Of a stretch of 64,000 nt of DNA, positions 21,090 to 47,350 are shown in pieces. The DNA lies in the NCBI GenBank assembly GCA_902574205.1, contig CACGMS010000001.1:41819-105818 (forward strand), written 5' to 3'. Within the stretch, counting starts at the first letter, position 1. The number at the start of each line of letters is the position of its first letter. The translations under genes and the position numbers were made by a program. The stretch comes from an uncultured Candidatus Hydrogenedens sp. Its GTDB lineage: Bacteria; Myxococcota; UBA4151. The notes under the pieces are model-generated. The model did no database searches, had not been told where the DNA came from, and saw only the letters and a list, made by a program, of their open reading frames with translations.

Positions 21090-23822
21090 ATGCGCACGTT
21101 CAGGGGGTTCTCGGTCTTGGTGCTGGTTTTGAATATGTCCTGCGGCGAGCAGGTGGCAGTTAGCGAGACGCAAGCGAACTGCGGCAACGGCAGCGTCGAA
21201 ATCGATGAGGCTTGCGATGATGGCAATACGGATAATTCCGATGCGTGCAGCAATGCTTGCGAACTCGCCGTATGTGGTGATGCGGTGACGCGCATGGACC
21301 TCGCTGTTGGCGAAGAAGGGCATGAGGGCTGCGATGACGGCAACGAGATCGATACCGACGGATGCACGACACTGTGCACCGTGGCTCGCTGTGGCGATGG
21401 TTATGTGCGCGCCGATGCATCTGAGGGCAGCGACGATTTTGAAGCCTGTGACGATGGCAATCGAGTGGATACCGATGGCTGCCGCAACGAGTGCCAGGTT
21501 GCTTATTGCGGCGATGGAGTAGTCCGAGATGATTTAGCACTCGATGAAGAAGGCTACGAAGCCTGCGACGACGGTAACGAAATTGAGACCGATCAATGTT
21601 TGAGTGATTGTGCCGTTGCACGCTGCGGTGATGGCGTTGTTGGACCGGGTGAGAGTTGTGATGATGGCAACGATGACCCAACAGATTCTTGCCGCGCCTG
21701 TCAGTTGGCGACTTGCGGTGATGGTGTGATTCAAGAAGGCGAAGTGTGCGATGATGGTAATGCCATCGAAAGTGACGCGTGTTTGAGCACTTGCGCACCG
21801 GCAGCATGCGGCGATGGTGTCGTGTATGAAGGCGTGGAAGACTGCGATGATGGCAACGCGCAGACCACCGATGCGTGCACCAGTGCCTGTCGATTGGCGC
21901 GTTGCGGCGACGGTATTCGGCGCTTAGATTTAGAGCCAGAAGACGATGGTTTTGAAGCCTGCGATGATGGCAACAACGAGGTCGGTGATGGATGTTCGGA
22001 GGTCTGCGCCTTGGAGCGCTGCGGAAATGGTCGCATCGATGCTGGAGAAGCCTGCGATGATGGCAACGCCGTGGATACTGACGGCTGCACGTCTGCTTGT
22101 TTACAGGCGCGTTGCGGCGATGGAATTCGCTATCTAGGCACCGAAGAGTGCGATGACGGCAATCAAGTCGAGACCGATGCGTGTTTGAACAATTGCCTCG
22201 ATGCGCGATGCGGCGACAATGTGGTGCGCCAGGGCGTGGAGGCTTGCGATGATGGCAACCTTGATGCTGGGGATGGCTGCAATGGTGTCTGTCAGACCGA
22301 AGGTTGCGGTAATGGTCGGCTCGATCCCGGGGAAGCCTGCGATGACTCCAACGCACAAGCTGGTGATGGATGCGATGACCAATGTCGACTCGAAATTTGC
22401 GGTAACGGGCGGGTTGATGCCGGCGAAGCCTGTGATGACGGAAACCGTATTGAGACCGATGCCTGCACCAGCGGTTGTTTAGCAGCTCGATGCGGTGATG
22501 GAATTCGTCGGAATGATCTGCAGCCACAGGATCCCGGTTACGAGGTGTGCGATGATGGCAACCAAGTCGATGATGATGCGTGCCGTAACACCTGCGAGAC
22601 CCTTCGCTGCGGCGATGGTGTCGTTGCTCAAGGTATTGAGTCTTGTGACGACGGTAACGCCGATGATTTGGATGCCTGTCGTAATGATTGCACGGTCGCA
22701 CGGTGCGGCGATGGCGTGACGCGTAACGATCTCAATGACGGTCAAGCCGGTTATGAAGTGTGCGATGATGGTAATGCGGAGCAAACAGACAGCTGTTTAA
22801 ATGATTGCTCGTTGGCGTCGTGCGGCGATGGTTTAGTACGCGCCGGAATCGAGGATTGTGATGACGGGAACAATGATCAAAGCGATGCTTGCCTCAATGA
22901 GTGCAGCATGGCGTCGTGCGGCGATGGCGTAACGCGTAACGATCTCAATGAGGGTCAAGCCGACTATGAAGCGTGCGATGACGGCAATATTGAGCAAACA
23001 GACAGCTGCTTAAATGATTGCTCGTTGGCGTCGTGCGGCGACAGCCTTATCCGAGAGGGAGTTGAGGGATGCGACGATGGGAACGCCGATTCGTGGGATG
23101 GGTGCTCGGCGCAATGCCAATTAGAAGGCGGCACTCAGCAGTCGCCGGCGCAAAGTTGTGCAGCGATTTTAGCCGCTCAACCGGGTATCGAGAGTGGTCC
23201 AGCTTGGATTGATCATGATGCAGCAGGCGGTGATTCGGCGATTTATGTGTATTGCGATCAAACGACGGAGCAAGGGGGATGGCTCGATATCGTGCGTACT
23301 TTCCATTTGCAGGGCATCGATCAAAACGCTTACCTGAGTCACTTCTTCTTGGCGAACAACGGTCAAGCGCTAGCAGCCGTCGTGGATTCGAACAATGCGG
23401 GACCGGGTTTAGGCATTCGCAATATGACCGCGAGTTATGACCACACAGAAGGTTTTCATTTGGTAAGTATGGTTCCCTTTTCTAAGGTCCGTACCAATTA
23501 CCGCATGCAAGGCACCGATCAGAACTACCGCTGCAATCACTCCAACTGGGTTCCGCTCAATGGACCCGGCTATGATGGGGGATACGACGGTTACCAAAGC
23601 GCATGTCCGAATGGTAAAACCTGTATTCAAGGTCGCTGCACGTATCTCCGAGACGCGCCGATCTCGGCGAGTTATTCGAACGATAACATCAATTCGGAAA
23701 CGACCTATCTGACGTGGAGCGGCAGTGGCGTGGGGACACAGACCTCAACCGGCTGTGCCCGCGATAATCTCATTCCATTTAACCGCCCAGTGACCTGGTT
23801 CACTCAGTTGCTTATTCGCTAG
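21090..23822 (+). CDS. Cys-rich repeat lipoprotein (19 units) with a C-terminal fibrinogen-like YCDxxxxGGW domain
   Basis: GGAGG lies 7 nt upstream of the ATG. The signal plus lipobox is [19 protein letters not shown] counted 19 CDDGN units. The C-terminal ~225 aa begin [47 protein letters not shown], which resembles fibrinogen C-domain subdomain A. Confidence 0.9.
22704..23041 (+). repeat. Near-identical ~125-bp duplication: 22704-22828 and 22917-23041 (offset 213 bp), including a 32-nt exact run
   Basis: [42 protein letters not shown] aligns with [42 protein letters not shown]. The exact run is ttaaatgattgctcgttggcgtcgtgcggcga. Confidence 0.9.
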
Positions 23823-23924: not shown

Positions 23925-24677
23925 TTGGTGCAGATGCGCTTACTGGTTGTTTTGGTTGTTTTGGTTACCGGTCCAGCGTTGGCAAGTGACCAGCCTGGTC
24001 TCGCCGCATTGAACATCAAGGCTGAACGAGGCGTGGATGCGAGTTTGGCGACACTCATCAGTGAAGCGATTCTGAGTGAACTCAAGGCGAGCGGTCGCTT
24101 TGCTTCGGTTATCGGCAGTTCCGATATGCAAACGATGATCGATATGGAGCAGCAAAAGCAGGCTTTGGGCTGCGACGAGAACACCTGTTTGGCTCAACTC
24201 GGTGGTGCGCTTGGAGTCCCTTATTTACTCAGTGGAAGTTTGGGATCGGTGGGTGGGCAATTTATGCTCAATCTGAAGATCATTCAGGTCGAAGAATCTC
24301 GCGTCGCAGAGCGAAAAACGCATATTTTTGATTCGGAAAAAGCGCTCGTCCGAGGGCTGGAATCGGTTTTGACGGGTTTAGTTTCAGGAGCTTTGAATTC
24401 GGCTGACGGCCAAGCCGAGTCGGTAAAGCAGGTCAGGGTGATGTCGCAGAGTAAAAGACTCGGTCCCTGGGTTGGCGGTGGATTGGCGACGATCGGCACA
24501 GGGTTGGCACTCGGCGGGTATCTCTCTGCACAAGCAGCACAGTCTGATTATGATGCATCGCCAACGGTGGCTCGTAGCCGAGACCTTCAAAGTGCAGTCT
24601 CTTCGGGAAATACGATGATCAGTATTGGCCTTGGATCCGTGGGTGCAGGTATCGCTGCTTTGGTGTGGTTACGATGA
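23925..24677 (+). CDS. Membrane-anchored protein carrying the GC-x4-C / ALGVPYLL module (uncharacterised, CsgG/LpoB/TolB-N-like by pattern only)
   Basis: The signal peptide is MRLLVVLVVLVTGPALA. The module is LISEAILSELKASGRFASVIGSSDMQTMIDMEQQKQALGCDENTCLAQLGGALGVPYLLSGSLGSVGGQFMLNLKIIQVEESRV. The C-terminus has two hydrophobic segments flanking AQSDYD. The start is uncertain among TTG 23925, GTG 23928 and ATG 23934. Confidence 0.8.
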   Translation: MVQMRLLVVLVVLVTGPALASDQPGLAALNIKAERGVDASLATLISEAILSELKASGRFASVIGSSDMQTMIDMEQQKQALGCDENTCLAQLGGALGVPYLLSGSLGSVGGQFMLNLKIIQVEESRVAERKTHIFDSEKALVRGLESVLTGLVSGALNSADGQAESVKQVRVMSQSKRLGPWVGGGLATIGTGLALGGYLSAQAAQSDYDASPTVARSRDLQSAVSSGNTMISIGLGSVGAGIAALVWLR

Positions 24678-25555
24678 AGAGACTGTATGCAGTTGCATGT
24701 GTTCTGGTTGCCTGCGTCGATGCCGATTACAGTGCCGGTGGTCTGCTCGACGAATGTCCGAAAAATAACAACGAGTGCACCGCAGGTTACCAATGCGAAA
24801 ATGGATACTGTACGCCAGAGTCAGAGATGCGAGCCGATAGTGGTGTCGTCACTGATGCTGGCTTCAATGATAGTGGACCCATAATGGATGATGCAGGTCC
24901 GAGTATCCCTCGTGATTGTCAGGCAATCAAAGCCGCTAACCTGGCTGCTGGGAATGGAACCTACACGATTGATCCTGATGGTCCGGGTGGTGAGTCAAGT
25001 CTCCAGGCACTTTGCGATATGACGACTGCCGGTGGGGGTTGGACGCGTGTGATCAATATACGAAACGGTGCAATCACTTGGAATGCATGGAGCGAACGTG
25101 TTGATGTCGAAAACAGCGCTTCGAGTTGGCAGCAAACAACGACTGGACTTGGCATTTCTCGGTTTTCGGACACCCCGGACGGTGAGGACCTCGAATACCT
25201 ATTTTTTGTCGAGAATAGACAAAGAGGAAGCCTCTACAGAGGCGTCAATAAGGGTGCATGGGATCCACGCCTCGGCTCTGAAGAATTTGATGCCTCTTTC
25301 GAGATCCGATCTCTGGATGACACGGATTGGCTGATTTGCGACCAAGCCTTGAACCACGCGCAGGACGACTGGAATTGGTCAATTGCGAGTGATCCGGCAG
25401 GTTCCTGTAACCGGATAGGTGGTGGTGATGCATTTCTACTTCGTGGTGGCGATGAGCACGGTGCCGAAGCAGCTGAACGTTTGTACGGTCTGACGGAATT
25501 TTTTGGGGCTTCACGCTGGATCGCTGTGAGTGTTTACGTGCGGCGAACGCCTTAG
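24674..25555 (+). CDS. Lipoprotein with a fibrinogen-like CDMTTAGGGWT domain
   Basis: The ATG at 24674 overlaps the upstream TGA (24675-24677) as ATGA. The lipobox is MKRLYAVACVLVAC. RDCQAIKAANLAAGNGTYTIDPDGPGGESSLQALCDMTTAGGGWTRV closely matches the ficolin/angiopoietin N-terminal FReD pattern. Confidence 0.85.
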   Translation: MKRLYAVACVLVACVDADYSAGGLLDECPKNNNECTAGYQCENGYCTPESEMRADSGVVTDAGFNDSGPIMDDAGPSIPRDCQAIKAANLAAGNGTYTIDPDGPGGESSLQALCDMTTAGGGWTRVINIRNGAITWNAWSERVDVENSASSWQQTTTGLGISRFSDTPDGEDLEYLFFVENRQRGSLYRGVNKGAWDPRLGSEEFDASFEIRSLDDTDWLICDQALNHAQDDWNWSIASDPAGSCNRIGGGDAFLLRGGDEHGAEAAERLYGLTEFFGASRWIAVSVYVRRTP

Positions 25556-27390: not shown

Positions 27391-29880
27391 ATGCGACCCT
27401 CGGCGACTAGAACGACTCTTTTGGTGATCAGCATGTGTGGGTCGATGGCTTGCGGTGAGCAGGTGGTCGTTCGCGAGACTGAGGCACGATGTGGTAATGG
27501 GCAAATCGATGCGGACGAGCAATGCGACGATGGCAATACACGCAACGAGGATGGCTGCACTGCGGCCTGTGTTGTCGCCGTCTGCGGTGATGGGGTTATC
27601 CGAACCGATTTAGGCCCTGATGACGTCGCCTTTGAAGGTTGTGACGACGGAAATTCAGCCGACGATGACGGGTGCACGAGCGCTTGTGTGCTCGCGGTCT
27701 GTGGGGACGGGATTGTTCGCACTGATATTGAGGCTGGCGCGCCCGGCTATGAAGCCTGTGATGACGCGAATGCGAGCGATCATGACGGCTGTTTGACCGG
27801 CTGTGTGTCAGCGAGCTGCGGTGATGGGGTCCGTCGTGAGGACTTAGCCGAAGATGACCTTGGTTACGAAGCTTGTGATGACGGCAACGAAGACGATACG
27901 GACGCCTGCCTCACCACGTGCTTAGAAGCGCGCTGCGGCGATGGGGTCGTCGGTCCTGGCGAGGGCTGTGATGATGCCAATGAGGACCCTACAGATGAGT
28001 GCAACGCGTGCCAACCGGCTGGCTGCGGCGACGGTGCGGTGCAAGACGGCGAGCAATGCGATGATGGGAACGCCATTGATACCGATGCCTGCTTGAGCAC
28101 GTGCGCAACTGCTCGTTGCGGTGATGGTGTAGTTTGGCAGGGCGAAGAAGTATGTGATGACGGTAACGCCAACGCCCAAGATGCGTGTACATTGCAATGC
28201 CAAGAGGCGGTTTGTGGCGATGGTATCCGTCGTCTCGATGTGCAGCCTGAAGACCCGAATTTTGAAGAGTGTGATGATGCCAATGCTGAACTGGGCGACG
28301 GCTGTTCGGATCGGTGTTTGACCGAACGTTGTGGCAATGGTCGTCTCGATCATGGCGAGGCCTGCGATGACGGAAACCAGGCGAACACCGATGCGTGCAC
28401 GAATGCGTGTGAATCGGCTCGTTGCGGCGATGGGGTAAGACACATCGGTCAAGAGGGCTGCGATGATGGTAACGCCGAAGTGGGCGATGGTTGCGATGCA
28501 CAGTGTCGGCTTGAAGGTTGTGGAAATAGTCGCCTAGATCCTGGCGAGGCGTGTGACGATGGGAACCGTGAGGCGGGTGACGGGTGCAACTTAGCTTGTC
28601 AGGTTGAGGTGTGCGGTAACGGTCGACGAGACCTTGGCGAAGCCTGCGACGATGGCAATCAGGTCGATACGGATGCTTGCTTGAGTGATTGTGTGCTCGC
28701 TCGTTGCGGTGATGGTCAACGCTTTGAAGCACAAGAAGCTTGTGACGACGGAAACCCATTCAATCAGGACCATTGTACGAATGATTGTCTAATCGCTCGA
28801 TGCGGCGACGGAATTACGCGCAATGATCTGGCTCAGGATGCTGAGGGTTATGAGGCTTGCGATGACGGCAACCAAGACCTTGGAGATGGATGCGATAACC
28901 AGTGTCGCCTTGAGGTGTGCGGGAACGGTCGACTCGATGAAGGTGAAGACTGTGACGATGGCAACCGTATTGAGACTGACGCATGCACCAGTGGTTGCTT
29001 TACGGCTCGCTGTGGGGACGGCATTCGACGACAGGACTTGGACCAAGGACAAGAAGGTTATGAAGCCTGCGATGACGGGAATCAGGAGCAAACCGATGGC
29101 TGCATCAACGATTGCGTGGCTGCGCGGTGCGGTGACGGACAAGTGCAGGTGGGTGTTGAGGGCTGCGATGATGGAAACCAGATCCCCAACGATGGTTGCG
29201 CAAACGATTGCACGCTGGGGCCTGATGGAAGCTCACCAGCGCAAGCGAGCACGACGTGTAAGGTGCTCAAATCAGAGTTCCCTCAGCTGCCGTCAGATGC
29301 TTATTGGCTCGATCCCGACGGCGCCGGTGGCGATGATCCGTTTCAAGCCTATTGCGACATGACGACCGACGGTGGCGGGTGGACGTACTGCTACACCACG
29401 AGTCGCTACGTGCATCTTTCAAGTCGTAACAGCGGCGGTACCTTTGGACAGGACGGCTACCAAGCGAATTGTCGAAAAGTGCCGTTTCACGAAGTGATTT
29501 ATCTGCGACACAGTGACGATGCCAATGCGATGTTCCGGAGGAACAACGGACAGGATGCGACCATCGAAACGCTCGGGTTTAATGTGGCGGGTAACGTGCT
29601 CGGGCAATGGACTGGGCGCGGGGCGGCATCACCCAATTGGTCTTATCAACTCAACATCTGCGACAATACGTGGATGCAGGTCGGTTTGATGATGACGGGC
29701 ATAACGAACAATTGCGCCAAACAATGCAACAACTGGTGCGGCGATACCTCGAGTCCTTATTATCGAACGAACGGTGAAGGGAACGGTGTTGCAAACTATA
29801 ATGCTTATCACGGCGTCGCTTTCGCACAGAACGGTCACCGCAACCTTGACCATCAACAGATGAGCGTGGGAATCCGCTAA
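27391..29880 (+). CDS. Cys-rich repeat lipoprotein (17 units) with a C-terminal fibrinogen-like YCDMTTDGGGWT domain
   Basis: The lipobox is MCGSMAC. The N-terminal ~330 aa are collinear with 21090..23822. The C-terminus begins TCKVLKSEFPQLPSDAYWLDPDGAGGDDPFQAYCDMTTDGGGWTY. Confidence 0.9.
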   Translation: MRPSATRTTLLVISMCGSMACGEQVVVRETEARCGNGQIDADEQCDDGNTRNEDGCTAACVVAVCGDGVIRTDLGPDDVAFEGCDDGNSADDDGCTSACVLAVCGDGIVRTDIEAGAPGYEACDDANASDHDGCLTGCVSASCGDGVRREDLAEDDLGYEACDDGNEDDTDACLTTCLEARCGDGVVGPGEGCDDANEDPTDECNACQPAGCGDGAVQDGEQCDDGNAIDTDACLSTCATARCGDGVVWQGEEVCDDGNANAQDACTLQCQEAVCGDGIRRLDVQPEDPNFEECDDANAELGDGCSDRCLTERCGNGRLDHGEACDDGNQANTDACTNACESARCGDGVRHIGQEGCDDGNAEVGDGCDAQCRLEGCGNSRLDPGEACDDGNREAGDGCNLACQVEVCGNGRRDLGEACDDGNQVDTDACLSDCVLARCGDGQRFEAQEACDDGNPFNQDHCTNDCLIARCGDGITRNDLAQDAEGYEACDDGNQDLGDGCDNQCRLEVCGNGRLDEGEDCDDGNRIETDACTSGCFTARCGDGIRRQDLDQGQEGYEACDDGNQEQTDGCINDCVAARCGDGQVQVGVEGCDDGNQIPNDGCANDCTLGPDGSSPAQASTTCKVLKSEFPQLPSDAYWLDPDGAGGDDPFQAYCDMTTDGGGWTYCYTTSRYVHLSSRNSGGTFGQDGYQANCRKVPFHEVIYLRHSDDANAMFRRNNGQDATIETLGFNVAGNVLGQWTGRGAASPNWSYQLNICDNTWMQVGLMMTGITNNCAKQCNNWCGDTSSPYYRTNGEGNGVANYNAYHGVAFAQNGHRNLDHQQMSVGIR

Positions 29881-32999: not shown

Positions 33000-35240
33000 T
33001 CATCGCCGCTCAACCAAGACCCGATCGACTCTCATGTAGCTGATATCATGCCAGTAGAGACGGGTCTCGAGTCGATGCCCTTCTCTTCCTTGGTTATTAA
33101 AATTAATATTAAAGTCTTGGTAGGTAAACGGTGCGTTGAAGTCTGAGCGACGAATGTTCTCTATGGCGAAAATCTCACCCGTATCGGCGTCAAAGAGGTC
33201 CATGGTGGCGACGATCTCCGGACGGTCGTTCACGACATCGATCATGATTCGATACGATGCAGAGAGCTCACCGACCGACCAATCCTGAGCATAGGGCCCA
33301 TAAATTAGATGACCCTCTTGATCAGGCTCGACGGAGGCGGACCAGCCATCTTCTTCGGCGCGACCGAGACCGTGCTGCAAATCGCGCTCAGCCTCGTAGA
33401 GCCATTCAAAAGCGATGGGCTGTTGCGCGTCATGATGGATCGTTAATCGCCTCCGAGCCAGCGGGCTCTGTGTCCCGCTCGCCACTCCGCTGTGGATCAG
33501 CCCGCCGCCCATCTCGATACCGCCATGAACCACGCACAGGCAAAAGCCGCTGTCGTCATTATCGCCCGGTCCAAAGTTGCCGAGCGTAAAGGATCGACCG
33601 TTGGCGTAGGTATTGAAGTTACTCAGTGAAACCGGCTGCCCAGCCCAGCCCAAAACCACGTCATGGTTTGGTACATCGTCCGGGAGGCGCGTCCATTGAC
33701 CGGGCGTCAAGTTGATGCGCCGGCCTGACCAATTGACGCCGACCTCTCGCTCGGTGACGCGGACGTAGCGATTCAAGCGCTTGAGCGGGTGAGCGGCTGG
33801 CCACTCGGTCATCACAAAGCCGCCAATAAAGCTGTAGGGTCCATCAAAGGTAGGATTGTCTTGCGGGTTACGCACCTGAACGAGTCGATCCACATCATGG
33901 CTGGTAGCGTCGAGTTCGTAGCCCACGCGCAGGTAGACCGGTCGTCGAACGCCATCATCGAATAAGTAGTCCTCGTGACAATTGCGTCCGGTGGAGCTCC
34001 CTCCAAAATCACCCTGCTTGGTGAGTCGACCTTCATAGACAATCCGTAGTGTGGTCTCGGTTGAGCTGACTTCGATCGGTTCAAAGCGCTGACTCCAGCC
34101 TGGTGAGCCTTCATTGCAAGCGCTCCAGGTCGGGATATCGGGGTCGGTATAGTGGGGGGCTTCAGCGAGACTGTATTGCGCACAAAAGGAGTTCTCGTCG
34201 GCGCAACTTGGGTTGTCATCTTCTTCAGGGACGGCGTTGGGGAACTCGATGTGTTCGGCGCCTTTATAGCCAGCAGGCCAGCGCCCTTGTCCGCGCTCGC
34301 CGACGACGAGGGCGTTGACCGGACGGTTGCCATCGAGCAGAACGAAGTCAAGGGATTCAAGGTTGCCATTGAGCGCCCAGAGCCCATTCATTTTCCCATA
34401 AAAACCGGTCTCATCGAGCCACGCCATGTACCAGCGACCGACAAAGACCCGGTCCTGGCTATTCGGTCCTGTTTGGTCATCGAGACCGAGCCCCTCAAGA
34501 GCGCGTCGAATCAGCCCATCAACGTGATCTGGCGGTGCGCCAGAGTAGTCATGGATTCGAGGTAAACCCTCGATGATGCGGGTGGGTAGCAAGTTGGCGA
34601 GACAGGAATTGCTGCACGCATCGTCATCCACCTGGTTGCCGTCGTCGCATTGTTCGACGCCGGCGTGGATGAGACCGTCTCCGCACCGGGCGAGGACGCA
34701 GCCGCTCAAGCAATCGTCGGTGTCGACGCTGTTCCCATCGTCGCAGGCTTCAAATCCGTCGTCAGTCGCGCCGAGGTCGGCTCGTACCACGCCGTCACCG
34801 CATATCGCTGGTGCACAATCATTACGGCATGCGTCTGCATCGTCTCGATTGCCGTCGTCACAGTGTTCGAAATCGCTGTCGCCCTCGGAGCGGTCGAGAC
34901 GGACAATGCCATCACCGCAACGGCTGGTTGTGCATCGATTAGAACATCCGTCCGTCTCGCGGGTATTGCCATCGTCACAAGCCTCAAACTCTTCGCTGTC
35001 TGGTGCTTGATCGATACGCGTCACTCCGTCACCGCATCGAGCCCGTTCGCAAGCGTTGGTACAACGATCGGTATTGTCGGCGTTGGCGTCGTCGCATGCT
35101 TCACCGGTCTCGAGTGTTCCGTTCCCGCACGAGGCTTCTCGGTCACGGATGATGACTTGTTCTGAGCAAGCCGATATCATCCACGAAGTGATGAATAGAG
35201 CGATCAAAAAGAAGGGTCGTTGCACGATATCTCCAGCCAC
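33000..35240 (-). CDS. Cys-rich repeat lipoprotein (5 units) with a ~530-aa orphan C-terminal domain
   Basis: It has a GTG start and the lipobox MISAC. The post-lipobox SEQVIIRDREASCGNG parallels 21090 and 27391. After the 5 CDDGN units I recognised no family. Confidence 0.85.
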   Translation of the reverse strand: MAGDIVQRPFFLIALFITSWMISACSEQVIIRDREASCGNGTLETGEACDDANADNTDRCTNACERARCGDGVTRIDQAPDSEEFEACDDGNTRETDGCSNRCTTSRCGDGIVRLDRSEGDSDFEHCDDGNRDDADACRNDCAPAICGDGVVRADLGATDDGFEACDDGNSVDTDDCLSGCVLARCGDGLIHAGVEQCDDGNQVDDDACSNSCLANLLPTRIIEGLPRIHDYSGAPPDHVDGLIRRALEGLGLDDQTGPNSQDRVFVGRWYMAWLDETGFYGKMNGLWALNGNLESLDFVLLDGNRPVNALVVGERGQGRWPAGYKGAEHIEFPNAVPEEDDNPSCADENSFCAQYSLAEAPHYTDPDIPTWSACNEGSPGWSQRFEPIEVSSTETTLRIVYEGRLTKQGDFGGSSTGRNCHEDYLFDDGVRRPVYLRVGYELDATSHDVDRLVQVRNPQDNPTFDGPYSFIGGFVMTEWPAAHPLKRLNRYVRVTEREVGVNWSGRRINLTPGQWTRLPDDVPNHDVVLGWAGQPVSLSNFNTYANGRSFTLGNFGPGDNDDSGFCLCVVHGGIEMGGGLIHSGVASGTQSPLARRRLTIHHDAQQPIAFEWLYEAERDLQHGLGRAEEDGWSASVEPDQEGHLIYGPYAQDWSVGELSASYRIMIDVVNDRPEIVATMDLFDADTGEIFAIENIRRSDFNAPFTYQDFNINFNNQGREGHRLETRLYWHDISYMRVDRVLVERR

Positions 35241-35374: not shown

Positions 35375-36844
35375 ATGCTGAGCTTGCGTGTATGGTGGAT
35401 GACGCTTTGCGCAGCTTTTGTCGTGAGCGGTGTTGTGCCGACAACGGCTGCAGCGGCACCTGCTGAAGACGCCGTCGATTCCGCAGATGAGACCCTACTT
35501 CTGGCGCAAAGTCGCCGCAAACGTAAGCGCCGGCGCAAACGGCGTAAGCGCAGGGCGGTCAAACCCGCAAAGCCGGCACAACCACAACCCAAAGAAGTGG
35601 TTAAAGAGCCCGTCAAAGAACCGGCAAAGCCGGCAGTTAAAGAGCCTGCTAAGCCTAAGCCAGTTGATCCCAACAAACCGAAACCGCTTAAACTCGCTGC
35701 TTTTGATATGACCAGCGCAGCAAAAGATATCGATGCGCAAATGTTGCGCGTGTTGACCGAGGTTGTGCTGACTACAATCAGTGCAGACGGTCGGTTTGAG
35801 AGCGTGATTACCGGCTCGGATCTGCGTGCTTTAATCAATCTTGAAAATCAAAAGCAGATGCTTGGCTGCGAAGATGCTGGGTGTTTGACCCAACTTGGAC
35901 AAGCGATTGATGTGCCTTATTTACTCACTGGTGAGGTGGGACGGGTTGGACAGCAAACGGTCATCAATCTCAAAATTATCGATATTGCTGAAGCTAAGGT
36001 TTTGGCGCGCGAAGGCGGAATGGTCGACAACGAATCCAAACTTCCGGAGTTGGTCAAACAAGCAGCAGGCAAAGCGCTGGCTAGTTTCTTTGCTCAGGTC
36101 AATCCCGAAGCAAAAGCAAAAGCGCAAACCGAACTCGATAAGCTGCCTGCGGTGGCGGTGCTCGATCTTGAGGCAGTGCATGGTGTGAAATCCACCATGG
36201 CTGCTGTGCTCAGTGATATTTTACTCTCGAGGTTATCGGACTCACGGAAGTTTAGCTCGATTATCGCCGGTGAAGATTTGCGCGATATGGTCAGTTTAGA
36301 GCAACAAAAAGAAGCGCTGGGCTGCGATGATGAAAGCTGCATGACGGCGATTGGTGGAGCCTTGGGCGTGCCCCTGATGGCGGTACCGAGCATCGGGCGA
36401 GTCGGCGAGCAGTTTGTCCTGAATCTTAAGGTCATTGAGGTTGAAGAGGCGAAGGTTCGAGTGCGTAAGAACCGTATGGTGCGCCGCGAGGTGGATCTGC
36501 CGACGGCAGTCCTTGGATTGACCGACGATGTGCTCAAAGCCTTGTTTGGTGAAGAAGCCTTGCTGACCGCTGAGCAAGCGACCAATCGCTTCGCCCGCAA
36601 GTTGATGCGCGGGACGTCGTTGGCGGTCGGTTTGGCATCGGTTGCTAGTTGGGGATTTTCGATGATGGACCTCGGCGCGGCTCAAGCTGCTTATGATGAC
36701 CCTCAAACCGGTCTGAGCGAGCAGACGCATAGCGACTTGATGGCTGCTCAAGAGCGCGCTTACACCCTGCGGTTGGGCGCATTGGTTGGCGGCGCAGTGA
36801 CGGCGGCGCTGTGGCTATTTTCGCCGACTGAGACGGCGCCCTAA
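35375..36844 (+). CDS. Membrane-anchored protein with two copies of the GC-x4-C / ALGVP module and an R/K then K/P/E-rich N-terminal linker
   Basis: A signal peptide is followed by RRKRKRRRKRRKRR and a KP/KEP-rich stretch. Module 1 is ...NQKQMLGCEDAGCLTQLGQAIDVPYLLTGEVGRVGQQTVINLKIIDIAEAKV. Module 2 is ...QQKEALGCDDESCMTAIGGALGVPLMAVPSIGRVGEQFVLNLKVIEVEEAKV. The C-terminal hydrophobic hairpin flanks AQAAYDD. Confidence 0.85.
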   Translation: MLSLRVWWMTLCAAFVVSGVVPTTAAAAPAEDAVDSADETLLLAQSRRKRKRRRKRRKRRAVKPAKPAQPQPKEVVKEPVKEPAKPAVKEPAKPKPVDPNKPKPLKLAAFDMTSAAKDIDAQMLRVLTEVVLTTISADGRFESVITGSDLRALINLENQKQMLGCEDAGCLTQLGQAIDVPYLLTGEVGRVGQQTVINLKIIDIAEAKVLAREGGMVDNESKLPELVKQAAGKALASFFAQVNPEAKAKAQTELDKLPAVAVLDLEAVHGVKSTMAAVLSDILLSRLSDSRKFSSIIAGEDLRDMVSLEQQKEALGCDDESCMTAIGGALGVPLMAVPSIGRVGEQFVLNLKVIEVEEAKVRVRKNRMVRREVDLPTAVLGLTDDVLKALFGEEALLTAEQATNRFARKLMRGTSLAVGLASVASWGFSMMDLGAAQAAYDDPQTGLSEQTHSDLMAAQERAYTLRLGALVGGAVTAALWLFSPTETAP

Positions 36845-39281: not shown

Positions 39282-41072
39282 TTAGCGATACTTGGCCTCG
39301 TCAAAGGCGAGTGCACCCCAGCAGGCGAGTTTGCCATTTGCTCTTAAACCACACGTTGTAAAGCGCCCAGCATCAATGGTTGCAAACGGGGTTTTATCGA
39401 CCTTGAGTTCACCATAATCATTCGAGCCCCAACACGTCACCGTTTGATCGGGTTTGAGCGCACAACTGTGCTGTGCACCCGCCTGAATGTTTGTGTAGCG
39501 ACCTTGGGGTGCTTGTGTTTGACCATAGCGGTTGGACCCCCAACACAGGATGCGTTGGTCTTTCGTCAGTCCACAGGTATGCCATTGACCGGCTTCGACT
39601 TGCCGAAAAATTCCTTTGGGTGGCGTCGCTTCAGTATGGTCATCGGCTCCCCAACAGCGGATCGTCTTGTTCAAGCGTAACGCGCAGTTGTGATACCCAC
39701 CCGAACTCACGGATCGGAACATCCCTCTTGGGCGCTTGGTTTGACCCGATTCATTATCGCCCCAGCATGTGATTCGCCCATCAGAGCGTAAGCCGCACGA
39801 ATGAAATTTCCCGGCGCTGATCGCCTCATAGCGCCCTTTGGGCACATTGAGCTGCCCGTTATCATTAGAACCCCAACAGACCACGCGTTTCTTTTTCGTG
39901 AGCCCGCAGGTGTGAACGGCTCCAGCAGCTAGGCTAACCAACGGTATCCTCGGCGCATGATCGCGCCCGCTTCGATCGTTGGCATTACGAGAGGCATAAC
40001 ATTGGCCTTCGGATCCGCCTTTGAGCACGCAGACATGAGACCAGATGGCGAGCACTCGAGGCGGAACTTGAAGATCGGTGCCGCGTTTGAGTTTGACCTT
40101 CCATGTGGTGGTCTTGCCTGCTTTAACACTCAGTACTTTTTTTGCCGAGCGATAGCCTTTGCGACTGACCACGACATCGTACTTACCGCTCTTTGCGCCC
40201 TTAACGCGCACCGGTAAGCCTTTGCTCACTTCAAAGGTTCCCGGACCAACGATCCTCACCTTTGCACCTTTAGGTTTTCCTTTGATGTGAAGTGTGCCGG
40301 GTTTCTTAAGCCGAATATTGAGCGCCTTGGTTTCATCGGTCTTGACCCACAGCACCCCGCGCTGAGTTTGTCGTCCTTTGGCTTTGGCTTGCCATCGGTA
40401 CAGCCCTTGCGGGACCTTTTTTAGCCAGGGCTTTTTCGGGTTGATTTTGAGGCGCACTTGAAAGCCGGCGGTGCCTCGGATTTTGACACGAGCACCTTTG
40501 GGTTTGCCGGTAATATTGATCCAGCCAAGCGCTCCCGTAATGGCGCCGCCCTCGACGGCTAGATCGTTACCCTTCCCTGATTCGCTGCTTTGTTCACCGA
40601 GCAATTCGCTTATTTTGGGTTCGAGTAGATCGAGCACGGTTTCGATTTGTTTGCCTTGGACATCGATGGTTCGAATCGCTTTGACACGCTCGATATCGAC
40701 AAGCTTGAGCAGTAAAACAAAGCGCATGCCGACGCGACTAAATTTACCGGTGATCATGACTCGAGCGCCAAGCGCGCCGCCGATCTCGGCGATACAACTC
40801 TCCATCTTGCAGCCGCCGGAGAGTTGGCGTTGCAACTCGACATCGATGGCGTCCATCGCTTCGGGGGTCACGAGCGTGTATCGCTCTGATTGTCCGGCGC
40901 GAATGCGGATCATTTCGGTGAGCGTGGCGGCATCAGATGCTTGGGTTTTGACGCGCTGCAACGGTGCAACGACAAGGGTCGGCTTCTCTGGCGCAGGAGC
41001 ACCAATCAGCAAAGCAAGCGCCACCATGTTGCATGCAGCCACGATGATCTCCAAGCTGATACTAAGGACCAA
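39282..41072 (-). CDS. Fusion protein: GC-x4-C / ALGA module + two PEGA domains + RCC1-like repeat propeller
   Basis: The module is ...LQRQLSGGCKMESCIAEIGGALGARVMITGKFSRVGMRFVLLLKLVDIERVKA. The PEGA-like segments are KPKGARVKIRG... and KPKGAKVRIVG...VVVSRKGYRSAKKVLSVKAGKTTTWKVKL. About 6 short RCC1 blades follow (HTCGL..VVCWGSNDNGQL, HSCGL..ITCWGDNESGQT, and others). The start is uncertain (41072 or 41027). Confidence 0.85.
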   Translation of the reverse strand: MVLSISLEIIVAACNMVALALLIGAPAPEKPTLVVAPLQRVKTQASDAATLTEMIRIRAGQSERYTLVTPEAMDAIDVELQRQLSGGCKMESCIAEIGGALGARVMITGKFSRVGMRFVLLLKLVDIERVKAIRTIDVQGKQIETVLDLLEPKISELLGEQSSESGKGNDLAVEGGAITGALGWINITGKPKGARVKIRGTAGFQVRLKINPKKPWLKKVPQGLYRWQAKAKGRQTQRGVLWVKTDETKALNIRLKKPGTLHIKGKPKGAKVRIVGPGTFEVSKGLPVRVKGAKSGKYDVVVSRKGYRSAKKVLSVKAGKTTTWKVKLKRGTDLQVPPRVLAIWSHVCVLKGGSEGQCYASRNANDRSGRDHAPRIPLVSLAAGAVHTCGLTKKKRVVCWGSNDNGQLNVPKGRYEAISAGKFHSCGLRSDGRITCWGDNESGQTKRPRGMFRSVSSGGYHNCALRLNKTIRCWGADDHTEATPPKGIFRQVEAGQWHTCGLTKDQRILCWGSNRYGQTQAPQGRYTNIQAGAQHSCALKPDQTVTCWGSNDYGELKVDKTPFATIDAGRFTTCGLRANGKLACWGALAFDEAKYR

Positions 41073-45365: not shown

Positions 45366-46568
45366 CTAATCGTTTATTGCGTCGTGAAAAAAGTCCACGA
45401 CAGCAGCGCGCTCTGAGGTGTCTGTAATGGTTGGGTTTCCAAGTTGTCCATGCGAGTTGTCTCCCCAACAGTAGGTATAGCCTCCTACGCTTACTGAGAT
45501 GCGCGCACAGCTAAAGGTCTTTCCGCCTGTGAACTGAACCCATTGCAGGTTGGGTAAGATTTCAACTTTTGCAATCCCGCTTTCATTCGGTTCACCGCCC
45601 AATTGACCGTACGAGTTATCGCCCCAGCAGACCGGGTGTCGGCCATCCGAATCGATCGCACACGTGTGGTTATCAGCGCAAAACACTTTGTCAGGAACCA
45701 TGGCAAGATTGATAACCTTTGGCGAGAGGTTACCGCCTGGATTGTTAGGCTGAATTTGCCCAAAGCTGTTATCGCCCCAGCACTGAACTTGTGGTCGGTC
45801 GTTCTCTCCTGTTTTGAGGATAACGCACGCGTGTTGGCGACCTACACAGAGTGAGTCGGGGTTAAGCTGACCGTCATTAGGTATGTCGAGAATCACCCTT
45901 GGTTCAGTGGGAAACGGATCCGCCTGCGTCGTTTGGCGTCCCCAGCAAATGACTTTGGATGGATTGAGCGTGACGGCACAGATATGGTCGTCGCCGACAT
46001 CAAAGGATTGGACGCTAATTGGTTGATCGTTCAGCTCCAACTGGAGCTCAAAAGGCGTGCGGTCGTTGGCGTCATTTTGACCAGGAAAAACCTGATACGA
46101 AGTGTCGCCCCAACAGGTGAGCGTGCCAAAGCCCGTATCATCTCGCTGCTGTGCGCAGGTTTTGGTTGAGCTTGATTTGATGGTCCGAAATTCACCGCTC
46201 ACGAGGAGCGTCGCCGCTTCTTGCGTGTCGTTGTGGCCAAAGACACCGTTGGGTGACTGCCCTGCACAGAGCACCTGACCGTCGACGCGTAAGCCGCAGA
46301 TCGTTGTACCGGTGACAGCGATCTGTTCAATGCCTTCTGATTGATTGATGGAAAACGGTAGCTCATAGGTTCGCCAGGGTGCACCTAAACTACCCCAGCA
46401 ACGAGTTTTTTCTGCGCCCGCTGCGGCGCAGACGAGGTCATCGACAGCGTCAATATGCTGCGGATCGTATTGATTGTAGTTGTATCCATCGAGCGGGTGA
46501 TTTCGCTCGGAGCTAATCGGGAGGCAGCTAAGACTTGATATCAGCGCCACAATGAGTAACGGCTTCAT
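45366..46568 (-). CDS. RCC1-repeat beta-propeller lipoprotein
   Basis: The ATG at 46568-46566 overlaps the upstream TGA (46567-46565) as ATGA. The lipobox is MKPLLIVALISSLSC. The blades include RCWGS, TCWGDTSYQ, ICWGRQ, QCWGDNSFGQ, VCWGDNSYGQLG and YCWGDNSHGQLG. Confidence 0.85.
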   Translation of the reverse strand: MKPLLIVALISSLSCLPISSERNHPLDGYNYNQYDPQHIDAVDDLVCAAAGAEKTRCWGSLGAPWRTYELPFSINQSEGIEQIAVTGTTICGLRVDGQVLCAGQSPNGVFGHNDTQEAATLLVSGEFRTIKSSSTKTCAQQRDDTGFGTLTCWGDTSYQVFPGQNDANDRTPFELQLELNDQPISVQSFDVGDDHICAVTLNPSKVICWGRQTTQADPFPTEPRVILDIPNDGQLNPDSLCVGRQHACVILKTGENDRPQVQCWGDNSFGQIQPNNPGGNLSPKVINLAMVPDKVFCADNHTCAIDSDGRHPVCWGDNSYGQLGGEPNESGIAKVEILPNLQWVQFTGGKTFSCARISVSVGGYTYCWGDNSHGQLGNPTITDTSERAAVVDFFHDAIND

Positions 46569-47350
46569 CGAGAGCTCCAAAATGACCAAAGATTCAAGCT
46601 TACGCCGAGCGCTCCAATGGCCACTGCCGTCATGCGCGCTGCGCCGAACTGATCGATCTGCTGCGTGAGATGGTTGTCCGCCGCATAGAGTGCATCCTCA
46701 TCTAAGGCGTGGTCGTAGTCTTGGCGCGCCTGGATCAAATCATCGGTTGAAGGCGCCATTACAGCGAAGACCCCCACGCTCGACCCGAGTAATGCCAAGC
46801 CCAACCATGAAAATCGGCGCGGTTGAAGCTGTTTGGTCGTCTGGGCGGGGTTGTTTTGAACGGGTTTTTGGCTTGCGCCCTCTGATGTTTTTGATGGCTT
46901 GCCAAATGCCTGAACAAGCATTTTATGGACATCGTTGGTGAGTCCATCAACGAGTTGGTCTTCATTGTCATAAATCGTAGACGAGCGAGTTACGACACGT
47001 GCTTCCTCAACGGCGAGCAGTTTGATGTTGAGCATGAGTCGGCTGCCTACTTGACCGACGGAACTCGTCAGTAAGTAAGGCACGCCAAGCGCCCCACCGA
47101 GCTCCGCAAGGCAGTTGCTGTCACCGCAGCCGAGCGCTGTCTTTTGTTGCTCGAGATCGAGCATTTCACGCATGTCGCTCGCACCGAGTATTTGACCAAA
47201 GACCGGGCTCCTTTGAAACTCGGTGATTAGCCGCTCGTTTAGTAAAGAGCCGACGCCCTGAGATAAGCCGGCTTCGACTTTCATATCCATCACCGCTAGA
47301 CCGGGTTTGGGGCTTGACAGCGTCGCCATCAAAACAAGTGCCACAGGCAT
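46565..47350 (-). CDS. Membrane-anchored protein carrying the GC-x4-C / ALGVPYLL module
   Basis: The module is ...LLNERLITEFQRSPVFGQILGASDMREMLDLEQQKTALGCGDSNCLAELGGALGVPYLLTSSVGQVGSRLMLNIKLLAVEEARV. The C-terminal hydrophobic hairpin flanks ARQDYD. Confidence 0.82.
   Translation of the reverse strand: MPVALVLMATLSSPKPGLAVMDMKVEAGLSQGVGSLLNERLITEFQRSPVFGQILGASDMREMLDLEQQKTALGCGDSNCLAELGGALGVPYLLTSSVGQVGSRLMLNIKLLAVEEARVVTRSSTIYDNEDQLVDGLTNDVHKMLVQAFGKPSKTSEGASQKPVQNNPAQTTKQLQPRRFSWLGLALLGSSVGVFAVMAPSTDDLIQARQDYDHALDEDALYAADNHLTQQIDQFGAARMTAVAIGALGVSLNLWSFWSSR

What the first reader, a model, noticed from the sequence alone, without database searches (positions are those of the whole stretch)
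45366..47350. Second ATGA-coupled pair: the same module protein followed by an RCC1 beta-propeller lipoprotein
On the minus strand, the TGA of 46565..47350 (46567-46565) overlaps the ATG of the RCC1 lipoprotein (46568-46566), reading cgATGAagcc. The upstream protein has the same architecture as 23925..24677: module ...QQKTALGCGDSNCLAELGGALGVPYLLTSSVGQVGSRLMLNIKLL... plus a C-terminal hairpin around ARQDYD. The downstream head, however, is a propeller rather than a fibrinogen-like domain. Independent recurrence of the same coupling with a different head argues for a functional partnership rather than chance adjacency.
Basis: partly seen in the sequence, partly recalled or inferred. Interest (0 to 1): 0.72.

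Follow-up and report, generated by a model that had tools for sequence, protein, structure and literature searches.

The report
Coupled membrane-anchor and lipoprotein gene pair
An uncultured marine myxobacterium carries a two-gene unit, repeated many times per genome, in which an exported, membrane-anchored protein of an undescribed family is followed by an overlapping lipoprotein gene (here an RCC1 propeller); the two most likely form a complex in the cell envelope, but its function is unknown.

Summary
On the minus strand, the TGA of 46565..47350 (46567-46565) overlaps the ATG of the RCC1 gene (46568-46566), with GGAG 6 nt upstream.

The pairing is not chance. Module genes abut a 4-nt-overlapping downstream gene in 26 of 34 scorable pairs, against 18 of 110 other same-strand pairs in the same DNA (p=1.7e-10). 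Four relatives of this pair (38-54% identity) keep module, 4-nt overlap and RCC1 gene.

The upstream protein has a signal peptide, a 130-aa domain with the LpoB/TolB-N/PelC/CsgG fold and an invariant CxxxxC, a disordered linker and a C-terminal two-helix hydrophobic hairpin. It matches no Pfam or NCBIfam model. The family has about 5,200 cluster representatives at E<=1e-10.

Every downstream partner is a lipoprotein, and the lipobox Cys is the only invariant column. Head domains vary: RCC1, DUF4215 repeats, fibrinogen-like, LamG, FGE-sulfatase, Kelch, NHL. A natural fusion of module, PEGA and RCC1 lies at 39282..41072.

Best reading: a constant anchor and a variable lipoprotein head, made in a fixed ratio and assembled together. 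Which membrane holds the hairpin and what the pair does remain unresolved. I found no published description.

The parts
46565..47350 (-). Module protein M2 (261 aa): short signal peptide, LpoB/TolB-N-like alpha/beta module, disordered linker, C-terminal two-helix hydrophobic hairpin
   Evidence: ORF. AF2 model with pLDDT 80.6. Foldseek matches. 104 homologues and 5,236 cluster representatives at E<=1e-10. No Pfam or NCBIfam hit.
46904..47302 (-). Alpha/beta module, aa 17-149 (beta-alpha-beta, three short helices, three-stranded meander, C-terminal helix)
   Evidence: Secondary structure and pLDDT 85-94. Foldseek: LpoB 4q6l E 5e-6, TolB 2w8b, FlgT 3w1e, PelC 9h80, GNA1162 4hrv, CsgG 4uv2.
47111..47128 (-). 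Invariant Cys75-x4-Cys80 inside the family signature EQQK.ALGC....CLAELGGALGVP; probable disulfide
   Evidence: C75, C80 and G85-P91 are invariant in 33 sequences. The Cys pair is still invariant in distant members. The disulfide is inferred.
46808..46903 (-). Low-complexity linker, aa 150-181, predicted disordered
   Evidence: pLDDT about 45. Length varies from 0 to about 60 aa across the family.
46568..46807 (-). C-terminal hairpin, aa 182-261: K/R-W flank, helix 1 (FSWLGLALLGSSVGVFAVM), acidic loop with ARQDYD, helix 2 (MTAVAIGALGVSLNLWSFW), tail SSR
   Evidence: AF2 helices 182-198, 202-214 and 218-260 with pLDDT 82-96. Charge statistics over 42 family members.
46565..46568 (-). ATGA junction: the module stop TGA overlaps the lipoprotein start ATG
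   Evidence: Sequence. Same junction in L001, L002 and L003. 26 of 34 against 18 of 110 background pairs.
46575..46578 (-). GGAG Shine-Dalgarno-like motif inside the last module codons, 6 nt before the ATG
   Evidence: Only 10 of 39 related junctions have such a motif.
45366..46568 (-). RCC1-repeat lipoprotein (400 aa), the variable head of this cassette
   Evidence: Pfam RCC1_2, RCC1 and WD40_RLD. PDB sequence matches to HERC1/2 RLD, UVR8 and RPGR.
46524..46535 (-). Lipobox S-L-S-C (Cys15), followed by LPISSERNHPLDGY, conserved in orthologues
   Evidence: Cys15 is the only invariant column among 39 partner proteins. Orthologue N-termini. The motif [DN][NH]P[LIA][DE] occurs in 7 of 47 heads and 0 of 429 background windows.
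23925..24677 (+). Paralogous module protein M1 (250 aa) of the first pair
   Evidence: 39% identity, E 1e-47. Same architecture.
24674..25555 (+). Fibrinogen-like (GGGWT) lipoprotein sharing an ATGA with M1
   Evidence: NCBIfam NF040941, E 1e-16. Lipobox LVAC. Junction. Unrelated to the RCC1 head.
39282..41072 (-). Natural fusion: signal peptide, module, PEGA, RCC1 repeats in one polypeptide, with no hairpin. The probable start is the internal Met near 41027.
   Evidence: Module motif found. Translation. Pfam RCC1_2 E 1.7e-55 and PEGA E 3.9e-7.
35375..36844 (+). Tandem double-module protein with a poly-K/R stretch and the same hairpin; no lipoprotein gene follows on the same strand
   Evidence: It groups with L042, which has the same architecture.

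Best explanation
This is one copy of a widespread, undescribed two-gene envelope cassette of Myxococcota. Gene 1 encodes a constant base. Gene 2 encodes a variable head.

The base is exported by a Sec signal peptide. It consists of a roughly 130-aa domain of the LpoB/TolB-N/PelC/CsgG fold class, stapled by an invariant CxxxxC. A disordered linker follows, then a C-terminal two-helix hydrophobic hairpin that fixes the protein in a membrane.

The head is a lipoprotein whose only constant feature is its lipobox. In this copy the business end is an RCC1 beta-propeller. In paralogues it is a fibrinogen-like, LamG, Kelch, NHL, FGE-sulfatase or Cys-rich-repeat domain.

The two genes are co-transcribed. 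A ribosome finishing gene 1 at the TGA restarts at the overlapping ATG, so both proteins are made at one place in a fixed ratio. After export and lipidation, the lipoprotein and the module are proposed to bind each other. The result would be a membrane-tethered complex that presents a ligand-binding head in the envelope or on the surface, presumably for recognising prey, particles or polymers.

Shown: gene anatomy, overlap, conservation, fold class, lipoboxes, the fusion.

Inferred: coupling by termination-reinitiation, disulfide, complex formation, localisation, ligand binding.
For: Overlap and SD motif.

Enrichment of the 4-nt overlap: 26 of 34 against 18 of 110, p=1.7e-10.

Conservation of module, 4-nt overlap and RCC1 gene in L001, L002, L003 (ATGA read in the DNA, lipobox seen) and P0006 (gene coordinates and Pfam only).

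Generality: 46 loci from five marine MAGs with 6-11 paralogues each, almost all followed by an overlapping or abutting lipoprotein gene. The lipobox Cys is the only invariant column of 39 partners.

Distant relatives with the same arrangement, including an NHL-propeller lipoprotein at 29% module identity.

Head domains are adhesin- or lectin-like.

Fusion evidence: module, PEGA and RCC1 in one chain in this window.

Fold class of protein-protein scaffolds in the periplasm. Some relatives reach Pfam LpoB, TolB_N or DUF3280.

Orthologous modules keep the same heads across genomes.

Most junctions lack a canonical SD (10 of 39), which fits dependence on upstream translation.

No head has Lys at +2. 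Lys +2 is the inner-membrane retention signal in M. xanthus (PMC3222651).

An RCC1-repeat protein is specific to outer-membrane vesicles in M. xanthus (PMC4158809).
Against: No direct evidence of binding. Multimer modelling was not available.

The co-variation tests showed nothing beyond shared ancestry of whole cassettes. The residual correlation was r=0.04, p=0.33, and the motif-versus-clade test gave p=0.10.

The most conserved module surface (the CxxxxC signature) is the same whatever the head. It therefore cannot be what recognises the variable part.

Similar large lipoproteins in the window have no module gene directly upstream: 15591..18188, 18192..20840, 21090..23822, 27391..29880 and 33000..35240.

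Some module proteins have no partner: 35375..36844, L028, L049, L052, L057 and L058.

Topology is not settled. The flanks of the hairpin carry K/R and Trp on the module side and an acidic loop on the far side. This is the reverse of what the positive-inside rule predicts for an inner-membrane hairpin with a periplasmic module.

Everything comes from uncultured genomes, and no expression data exist.
Confidence: 0.55

Rival explanations
1. Outer-membrane display or export device. The signal peptide takes the whole module protein across the inner membrane. The glycine-containing hairpin inserts into the outer membrane, as in SlyB/Pcp-type 2TM glycine zippers or the Wza helical barrel. The module oligomerises into a ring like PelC, CsgG or FlgT under the outer membrane. 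The cognate lipoprotein is then held at, or flipped through, this assembly to the cell surface.
For: The charge pattern fits. Over 42 hairpins, the 14 aa before helix 1 hold 111 K/R against 30 D/E, the loop holds 121 K/R against 235 D/E, and the C-terminal tail often ends W..R. An aromatic-basic girdle on the module (periplasmic) side and an acidic far side suit an outer-membrane hairpin better than an inner-membrane one.

The closest folds include ring-forming outer-membrane-proximal proteins PelC, CsgG and FlgT.

The heads look like surface adhesins or lectins.

Coupled heads have a bulky hydrophobic residue at +2 in about 33 of 42 cases, against 6 of 22 other lipoproteins. This could be a special sorting signal.

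How myxobacteria expose lipoproteins on the surface is unknown (PMC3222651).
Against: Helix 1 is strongly hydrophobic in many members (Kyte-Doolittle mean up to 2.1-2.8 over 15 aa). It would be expected to stop in SecYEG and stay in the inner membrane.

There is no lipid anchor on the module protein and no known route for such a helical protein to reach the outer membrane.

Single-TM variants (L053, L054) look like ordinary type I inner-membrane anchors.

No Pfam glycine-zipper match at E<=1. The 30-50 aa loop is unlike the tight turn of known 2TM glycine zippers.

Oligomerisation was not tested.
Confidence: 0.2
2. Co-expression without a specific complex. The module protein is a general envelope spacer or peptidoglycan- or membrane-associated factor. 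The overlap only ensures economical co-expression of two envelope proteins inherited as a duplicated operon.
For: 4-nt overlaps are common anyway (16% of other pairs).

The conserved module signature does not vary with head type.

Co-variation tests showed only shared ancestry.

Some modules lack partners and many similar lipoproteins lack modules.
Against: The pairing survives divergence down to 29% module identity and across unrelated head folds.

The partner is a lipoprotein in every case.

A fusion of module and RCC1 exists.

6-11 separate module paralogues per genome would be unnecessary for a generic factor.
Confidence: 0.15
3. Trans-membrane sensor pair. The lipoprotein head binds an external or periplasmic ligand. 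The module relays this through the inner-membrane hairpin, whose roughly 40-aa loop faces the cytoplasm and contacts a signalling partner.
For: The loop has a semi-conserved motif, A-x-x-D/E-Y/F-D, and is predicted helical with high confidence. Heads are ligand-binding folds.
Against: No signalling domain and no conserved third gene next to the cassettes. The loop is short, acidic and variable. The fusion protein lacks the hairpin altogether.
Confidence: 0.07

Closest known systems
LpoB (outer-membrane lipoprotein activator of PBP1B) and the TolB N-terminal domain
   Same: Same alpha/beta fold class by Foldseek: 4q6l E 5e-6, 2w8b E 6e-6, 2mii. Like LpoB, the globular module is joined to its membrane anchor by a long disordered linker. 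Some distant relatives reach Pfam LpoB (PF13036) or TolB_N (PF04052). Both known domains are periplasmic protein-protein interaction modules that work across the envelope.
   Different: The window protein matches neither Pfam model. It has no lipobox, and its anchor is a C-terminal helical hairpin rather than an N-terminal lipid. It carries a family-specific CxxxxC signature. It is paired with a variable lipoprotein rather than a peptidoglycan synthase or Pal/TolA. It occurs in 6-11 paralogues per genome.
PelC, CsgG, FlgT, GNA1162: ring-forming or outer-membrane-proximal scaffolds of secretion and flagellar systems
   Same: Same fold class: 9h80 E 2e-5, 4uv2 E 6e-4, 3w1e E 2e-5, 4hrv E 6e-5. 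All sit under or in the outer membrane and work together with a specific secreted or outer-membrane partner encoded nearby.
   Different: Those proteins are lipoproteins themselves, or soluble in the case of FlgT. Their partners are polysaccharide, curli subunits or flagellar rings. No oligomer was shown here. There are no beta-hairpins like the CsgG channel.
Glycine-zipper 2TM outer-membrane lipoproteins (SlyB, Pcp, 17-kDa antigen; Pfam PF05433). This comparison rests on my own knowledge.
   Same: Two consecutive small-residue-rich hydrophobic helices form a hairpin next to a periplasmic domain.
   Different: No Pfam match at E<=1. The loop is 30-50 aa rather than a tight turn. There is no N-terminal lipid. 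Helix 1 is much more hydrophobic.
Termination-reinitiation coupling at ATGA overlaps in bacterial operons (general knowledge)
   Same: A 4-nt ATGA overlap, a frequently weak or absent SD, and an association with products presumed to act together in fixed ratios.
   Different: Nothing differs in principle. The unusual point is the near-universality of the overlap in one paralogous family (26 of 34 against 16% background).
Dedicated surface-lipoprotein export systems (Slam/type 11 secretion). Functional analogy only.
   Same: A partner gene is adjacent to its lipoprotein cargo, and the cargo varies between paralogous loci.
   Different: Slam is an outer-membrane beta-barrel (DUF560) with TPR repeats. 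Nothing of that kind is present here, and no homology was found.

Membership tests
LpoB / TolB_N-like superfamily (module) | Alpha/beta fold shared by the LpoB C-domain and the TolB N-domain | tested here: met
   AF2 pLDDT 85-94 over aa 17-149. Foldseek probability 1.0, E 5e-6 to 1e-4, target-normalised TM 0.42-0.62 for LpoB entries.
LpoB / TolB_N-like superfamily (module) | Match to Pfam PF13036 (LpoB), PF04052 (TolB_N) or PF11684 (DUF3280) | tested here: not met
   No Pfam family at E<=1 for the window protein. Only some distant relatives carry these hits.
LpoB proper | N-terminal lipobox (outer-membrane lipoprotein) | tested here: not met
   The N-terminus is MPVALVLMATLSSPKPG, and paralogues have SPase I-type signals such as ...PALA|SDQ. 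No lipobox Cys.
LpoB proper | Binds the UB2H domain of PBP1B and stimulates it | not testable with these tools
   No PBP gene is adjacent. Function is not addressable in silico here.
RCC1-like beta-propeller (head) | RCC1 repeats above Pfam gathering thresholds | tested here: met
   RCC1_2 79 bits (cut-off 22) and RCC1 49.5 bits (cut-off 21.7). PDB sequence hits to HERC1/2, UVR8 and RPGR at E 1e-13 to 1e-9.
RCC1-like beta-propeller (head) | Closed seven-bladed propeller | tested here: inconclusive
   AF2 with a 4-sequence alignment gave pLDDT 50. The model is all-beta with repeated 3-4-strand units but is not reliable.
Bacterial lipoprotein (head) | Signal peptide ending in a lipobox with invariant Cys | tested here: met
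   MKPLLIVALISSLSC fits the PROSITE-type lipobox rule as I recall it (my reading of the sequence, not run through a tool). The Cys aligns with the lipobox Cys of all 38 other partners and is the only invariant column. Orthologues have LLGC and AGAC.
Translationally coupled (termination-reinitiation) gene pair | Stop and start codons overlap (ATGA) on one transcript, conserved in relatives | tested here: met
   No terminator-like site on the minus strand between the genes.
Translationally coupled (termination-reinitiation) gene pair | Downstream translation depends on upstream translation | not testable with these tools
   Needs reporter fusions with upstream premature stops, or Ribo-seq.
Glycine-zipper 2TM domain (SlyB/Pcp type) | Pfam PF05433/PF13488/PF13441 match; tight two-helix hairpin with GxxxG zippers | tested here: not met
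   No Pfam hit at E<=1. Two hydrophobic helices are present, but the loop is 30-50 aa.
Known anti-phage defence systems | Match to a PADLOC model | tested here: not met
   No hit at E<=0.01 for either pair.

The most novel reading that the evidence does not exclude
The module proteins are a new class of paralogue-specific partners that carry or anchor their cognate lipoproteins at the outer membrane and expose them on the cell surface. The glycine-containing hairpin would sit in the outer membrane under a ring of LpoB/PelC-like modules. On this reading the cassette is a previously unknown route for surface display of lipoproteins in Myxococcota, expanded to a dozen or more interchangeable 'anchor plus head' units per genome.
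Probability: 0.15. Interest if true: 0.85.

Novelty: new variant of a known kind. Interest (0 to 1): 0.66.

Why it matters
How diderm bacteria other than Neisseria and Bacteroidota place lipoproteins on their surface is largely unknown. The same is true of how myxobacteria organise their many adhesin-like lipoproteins.

This work defines a large family: about 5,200 cluster representatives at E<=1e-10, 6-11 copies per genome. It has no Pfam or NCBIfam model and follows a simple, testable genetic rule. A membrane-anchored LpoB-like protein is nearly always followed, in overlap, by a lipoprotein with a swappable ligand-binding head.

The rule gives annotators a way to recognise these pairs. It gives experimenters a defined two-protein system for testing complex formation, sorting and surface exposure. 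It gives ecologists a candidate recognition repertoire of abundant marine Myxococcota.

If the pair proves to be only a co-expressed operon, the finding is still a useful family definition, but of modest importance.

Tried and rejected
- Pfam, NCBIfam and PDB sequence searches of the module gave nothing. Only structure prediction plus Foldseek placed it.

- AF2 of the RCC1 head had to use a 4-sequence alignment, because only window sequences were allowed. It gave pLDDT 50 and was not used.

- Mantel tests for module-head co-variation were run. Module similarity correlates with both the head N-terminus (r=0.29) and the rest of the head (r=0.27). The correlation disappears once pairs with similar C-terminal head parts (mostly orthologues) are removed (r=0.04, p=0.33).

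- One module clade of eight cassettes with six different head compositions all share an N-terminal 4-Cys motif. A permutation over head groups was not significant (p=0.10). This is recorded as a hint only.

- My automatic lipoprotein detector was too strict: it recovered only 11 of about 40 coupled heads. I therefore read lipoboxes from the start of each partner and corrected eight by eye.

- PADLOC found nothing, so a defence-system reading was dropped.

- Five literature searches found no description of the pairing.

- Chance adjacency is rejected.

- The alternative TTG start at 46589 is rejected as less likely.

- The 217-aa 'truncated' orthologue P0007 is an assembly frameshift, not a variant. 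The ATGA junction is intact in L001.
Full report
OBSERVATION

The minus strand reads ...ttttGGAGctctcgATGAagcc. The ATG at 46568-46566 starts a 400-aa ORF that ends at 45366. The TGA at 46567-46565 ends the 261-aa ORF that starts at 47350. GGAG lies 6 nt before the ATG.

The in-frame TTG at 46589 has no such motif and would add MVILELS in front of a normal signal peptide. Orthologous proteins begin at the position of the ATG: MSRHLLLLSATLLGC|LPIS and MIARLPLLTLLLAGAC|LPIS.

The downstream protein passes the Pfam thresholds for RCC1_2 and RCC1. By sequence it resembles the RCC1-like domains of HERC1/2, UVR8 and RPGR.

The upstream protein is 39% identical (E 1e-47) to 23925..24677. That gene shares an ATGA with a fibrinogen-like GGGWT lipoprotein gene at 24674..25555. 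The two heads are unrelated.

IS IT MORE THAN CHANCE?

A scan of one genome per species with the family signature returned 46 loci. Forty-three of them came from five marine Myxococcota MAGs, at 6-11 paralogues per MAG.

Of 42 complete module ORFs, 25 end in ATGA with a long ORF starting at the overlap. Seven end in GTGA and one in TTGA, and several more end in TGATG or abut the next gene directly. A same-strand partner ORF could be assigned in 39 loci.

I also made a crude gene call on all fetched DNA. It gave a 4-nt overlap in 26 of 34 module-to-next-gene pairs, against 18 of 110 other co-directional pairs (odds ratio 16.6, p=1.7e-10).

Four relatives of this particular pair keep the arrangement:
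- L002 (54% identity) has ATGA followed by an RCC1 lipoprotein.
- L003 (38%) has ATGA followed by an RCC1 lipoprotein.
- The syntenic L001 has ATGA followed by an RCC1 lipoprotein.
- P0006 (49%) has a 4-nt overlap with an RCC1 gene.

The 217-aa gene call in L001 is an assembly frameshift.

Ten distant relatives on long contigs were also examined. Five have an overlapping or abutting lipoprotein gene:
- L048 has a 1-nt overlap.
- L050/L051 have GTGA followed by an NHL-propeller lipoprotein, at 29% module identity.
- L053 and L054 are single-TM variants with overlapping lipoprotein genes.
- L055 has a 3-nt gap.

The other five have no such partner.

WHAT THE TWO PROTEINS ARE

The module protein matches nothing in Pfam, NCBIfam or PDB by sequence.

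An AF2 model built on 33 homologues has pLDDT 80.6. It shows three parts:
- A compact alpha/beta domain spans aa 17-149.
- A disordered stretch spans aa 150-181.
- Three helices (182-198, 202-214, 218-260) form a hairpin.

Foldseek places the domain with the LpoB C-domain, the TolB N-domain, FlgT, PelC, GNA1162, HpaA, a DUF330 lipoprotein and CsgG (E 5e-6 to 1e-3). These are all periplasmic, mostly outer-membrane-proximal scaffolds, and several form rings.

A few distant relatives reach the Pfam models LpoB, TolB_N, DUF3280 or PEGA. JGI labels some of them 'TolB-like'.

The family signature EQQK.ALGC....CLAELGGALGVP has an invariant Cys pair. Together with clear Sec signal peptides in most members, this argues that the module is exported and disulfide-bonded. 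That is an inference.

The family is large. A profile search found 10,379 cluster representatives at E<=1e-3, 5,236 at E<=1e-10 and 360 at E<=1e-30. Most top hits cover both module and hairpin. All named hits are uncultured Myxococcota or 'Deltaproteobacteria'.

The partners have one thing in common. When 39 of them are aligned, the only invariant column is the lipobox cysteine. Their Pfam content is:
- DUF4215 Cys-rich repeats in 15.
- RCC1 in 11.
- Fibrinogen/COLFI-like domains in 6.
- LamG in 5.
- FGE-sulfatase in 2.
- Kelch, Stig1-like and Big_13 in 1 each.
- No Pfam match in the rest.

These are adhesin- or lectin-type folds.

None has Lys at +2. Lys +2 is the inner-membrane retention signal in M. 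xanthus (PMC3222651). About 33 of 42 have a bulky hydrophobic residue at +2, against 6 of 22 other lipoproteins in the same DNA. The uncorrected count was 32 of 42 (Fisher p=3e-4); I then corrected eight lipobox positions by eye and did not recompute the test.

Two N-terminal elements recur across different head classes:
- [DN][NH]P[LIA][DE] lies 7-9 residues after the lipid Cys in 7 of 47 heads. This includes the present one (CLPISSERNHPLDGY). It occurs in 0 of 429 background windows.
- A 4-Cys knot, C-x2-4-C-x4-9-C-x2-6-G-x-C, occurs in 15 of 47 heads, including the first pair's head.

EVIDENCE FOR A PARTNERSHIP

1. The overlap and the lipoprotein nature of the partner persist across unrelated head folds and down to 29% module identity.

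2. Orthologous modules keep the same head across genomes. Examples are WIN_M2/L002/L003 with the small RCC1 head, L010/L015 with LamG plus fibrinogen-like, L008/L009, L020/L031, L011/L021/L030, L038/L039, L004/L006 and L017/L023/L025. RCC1 heads appear in at least four module clades, so heads have been exchanged or re-invented.

3. The window itself holds a fusion at 39282..41072: signal peptide, module, PEGA and RCC1 repeats in one chain, without a hairpin. This places module and RCC1 propeller in the same compartment and the same functional context.

4. Only 10 of 39 junctions have a canonical SD, against a background of 9.5%. This fits re-initiation by the terminating ribosome.

WHAT IS NOT SHOWN

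Physical binding, real coupling and function are all unshown.

Co-variation tests gave nothing beyond inheritance of whole cassettes.

Similar large lipoproteins in the window have no module gene of their own: 15591..18188, 18192..20840, 21090..23822, 27391..29880 and 33000..35240.

Some module proteins have no partner: the double-module 35375..36844 and its relative L042, and also L028, L049, L052, L057 and L058.

THE TOPOLOGY PROBLEM

Over 42 hairpins, the 14 residues before helix 1 contain 111 K/R and 30 D/E, usually with a Trp. The loop contains 121 K/R and 235 D/E. The tail after helix 2 often ends W..R.

If the module is periplasmic and the hairpin sits in the inner membrane, this is the reverse of the positive-inside rule. 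It would suit a hairpin in the outer membrane, with the basic-aromatic girdle at the periplasmic leaflet.

Two points argue against that. Helix 1 is often hydrophobic enough to be retained by SecYEG, and single-TM variants look like ordinary type I anchors.

I rate inner-membrane anchoring about as likely as outer-membrane anchoring and leave the question open.

MECHANISM I COMMIT TO (confidence 0.55)

I read this as a bipartite envelope unit. A constant, membrane-anchored LpoB/TolB-N-like base and a variable lipoprotein head are made in a fixed ratio by termination-reinitiation at ATGA. They then assemble into a complex that holds a ligand-binding domain in the envelope or at the surface.

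The rivals are:
- An outer-membrane ring or display device (0.2).
- Mere co-expression without a complex (0.15).
- A sensor pair (0.07).
- Chance (below 0.01).

COMPARISON WITH KNOWN SYSTEMS

The module works like LpoB or TolB-N in being a tethered periplasmic interaction domain. It is not a member of LpoB proper: it has no lipobox, no Pfam match and a different partner.

It shares its fold with PelC, CsgG and FlgT, but no oligomer was shown.

The hairpin recalls 2TM glycine zippers but fails their Pfam models and has a long loop.

The overlap is ordinary translational-coupling anatomy.

No PADLOC model matches, and five literature searches found no description.

An RCC1-repeat protein is outer-membrane-vesicle-specific in M. 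xanthus (PMC4158809). This is weak support for an outer location of such heads.

VERDICT

It generalises into a rule that defines a large uncharacterised family.

I rate it a new variant of a known kind: a tethered periplasmic scaffold plus a lipoprotein partner. Interest is 0.66.

There is a 0.15 chance that it is a new route for surface display of lipoproteins, which would deserve 0.85.

Noticed in passing
window 39282..41072 (-): One polypeptide joins a signal peptide, the module, a PEGA domain and five or more RCC1 repeats, with no C-terminal hairpin. It is a natural fusion of the two partners, 4 kb from the RCC1 cassette. The likely true start is the internal Met near 41027 (MVALALLIGAPAPEKP...).
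   Followed up: partly
window 35375..36844 (+); L042 3851..5119: This is a tandem double-module protein with the same hairpin and no lipoprotein gene after it. It is divergently oriented to a DUF4215 lipoprotein gene (33000..35240). After its signal peptide comes a run of about 20 K/R residues (RRKRKRRRKRRKRR).
   Followed up: partly
L004, L016, L024, L026, L036 (module proteins of 320-380 aa): Longer module proteins carry a poly-K/R tract of 20-35 residues, followed by a Pro/Ala/Glu-rich stretch, between the signal peptide and the module. What a polybasic tract does in an exported protein is unexplained.
   Followed up: no
42 family members, C-terminal hairpin (window 46568..46807 for M2): The hairpin shows a charge asymmetry. 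K/R plus Trp lie on both module-side flanks, and the loop is acidic. This is opposite to the positive-inside rule if the module is periplasmic and the hairpin sits in the inner membrane.
   Followed up: partly
partner lipoproteins in L001-L055 and window 46524..46535, 24674..24720: The residue after the lipid Cys is L, V, F, Y or M in about 33 of 42 coupled lipoproteins, often as C-L-P. It is so in only 6 of 22 other lipoproteins in the same DNA. Lys at +2 never occurs. This is a possible sorting signature.
   Followed up: partly
heads: window 46478..46523 (CLPISSERNHPLDGY); window 24750..24810 (CPKNNNECTAGYQCENGYC); L005, L022, L034 and others: Two short N-terminal elements are shared by heads of different domain classes. 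One is [DN][NH]P[LIA][DE], 7-9 aa after the lipid Cys. The other is a 4-Cys knot. One module clade of eight cassettes all have the knot, but the association was not significant (p=0.10).
   Followed up: partly
window 15591..18188, 18192..20840, 21090..23822, 27391..29880, 33000..35240: Five further large lipoproteins have the same head vocabulary (DUF4215 repeats plus RCC1 or fibrinogen-like domains). None has a module gene directly upstream. 21090..23822 lies immediately upstream of M1, so M1 is flanked by two fibrinogen-like lipoprotein genes.
   Followed up: partly
L001 6001..6740: The public 2.49-Mb contig has a frameshift in the module gene, and the gene was called as 217 aa. The ATGA junction and the RCC1 lipoprotein gene are intact. 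The locus is syntenic with the window (photolyase, pyridoxamine-oxidase-like and flavodoxin/FAD reductase genes).
   Followed up: yes
L034 7393.., L020 1170.., L031 778.. and 2299..: Some cassettes are followed or preceded by further lipoprotein genes of the same kind (C|LPPGLTER, C|LDLITVIP). Some units may therefore have one module and several heads.
   Followed up: no
window 14631..15350 (+): A 239-aa lipoprotein (…LISSTGC|ATVY) with no Pfam match lies 240 nt upstream of the first large RCC1/DUF4215 lipoprotein gene. I did not compare it with the module family.
   Followed up: no
junctions of 39 cassettes: Only 10 of 39 junctions have a canonical GGAG, GAGG or AGGA at -16 to -7. Most are G-rich only because of the Trp and Gly codons of the hairpin's end (…tggtggtgg…).
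   Followed up: partly
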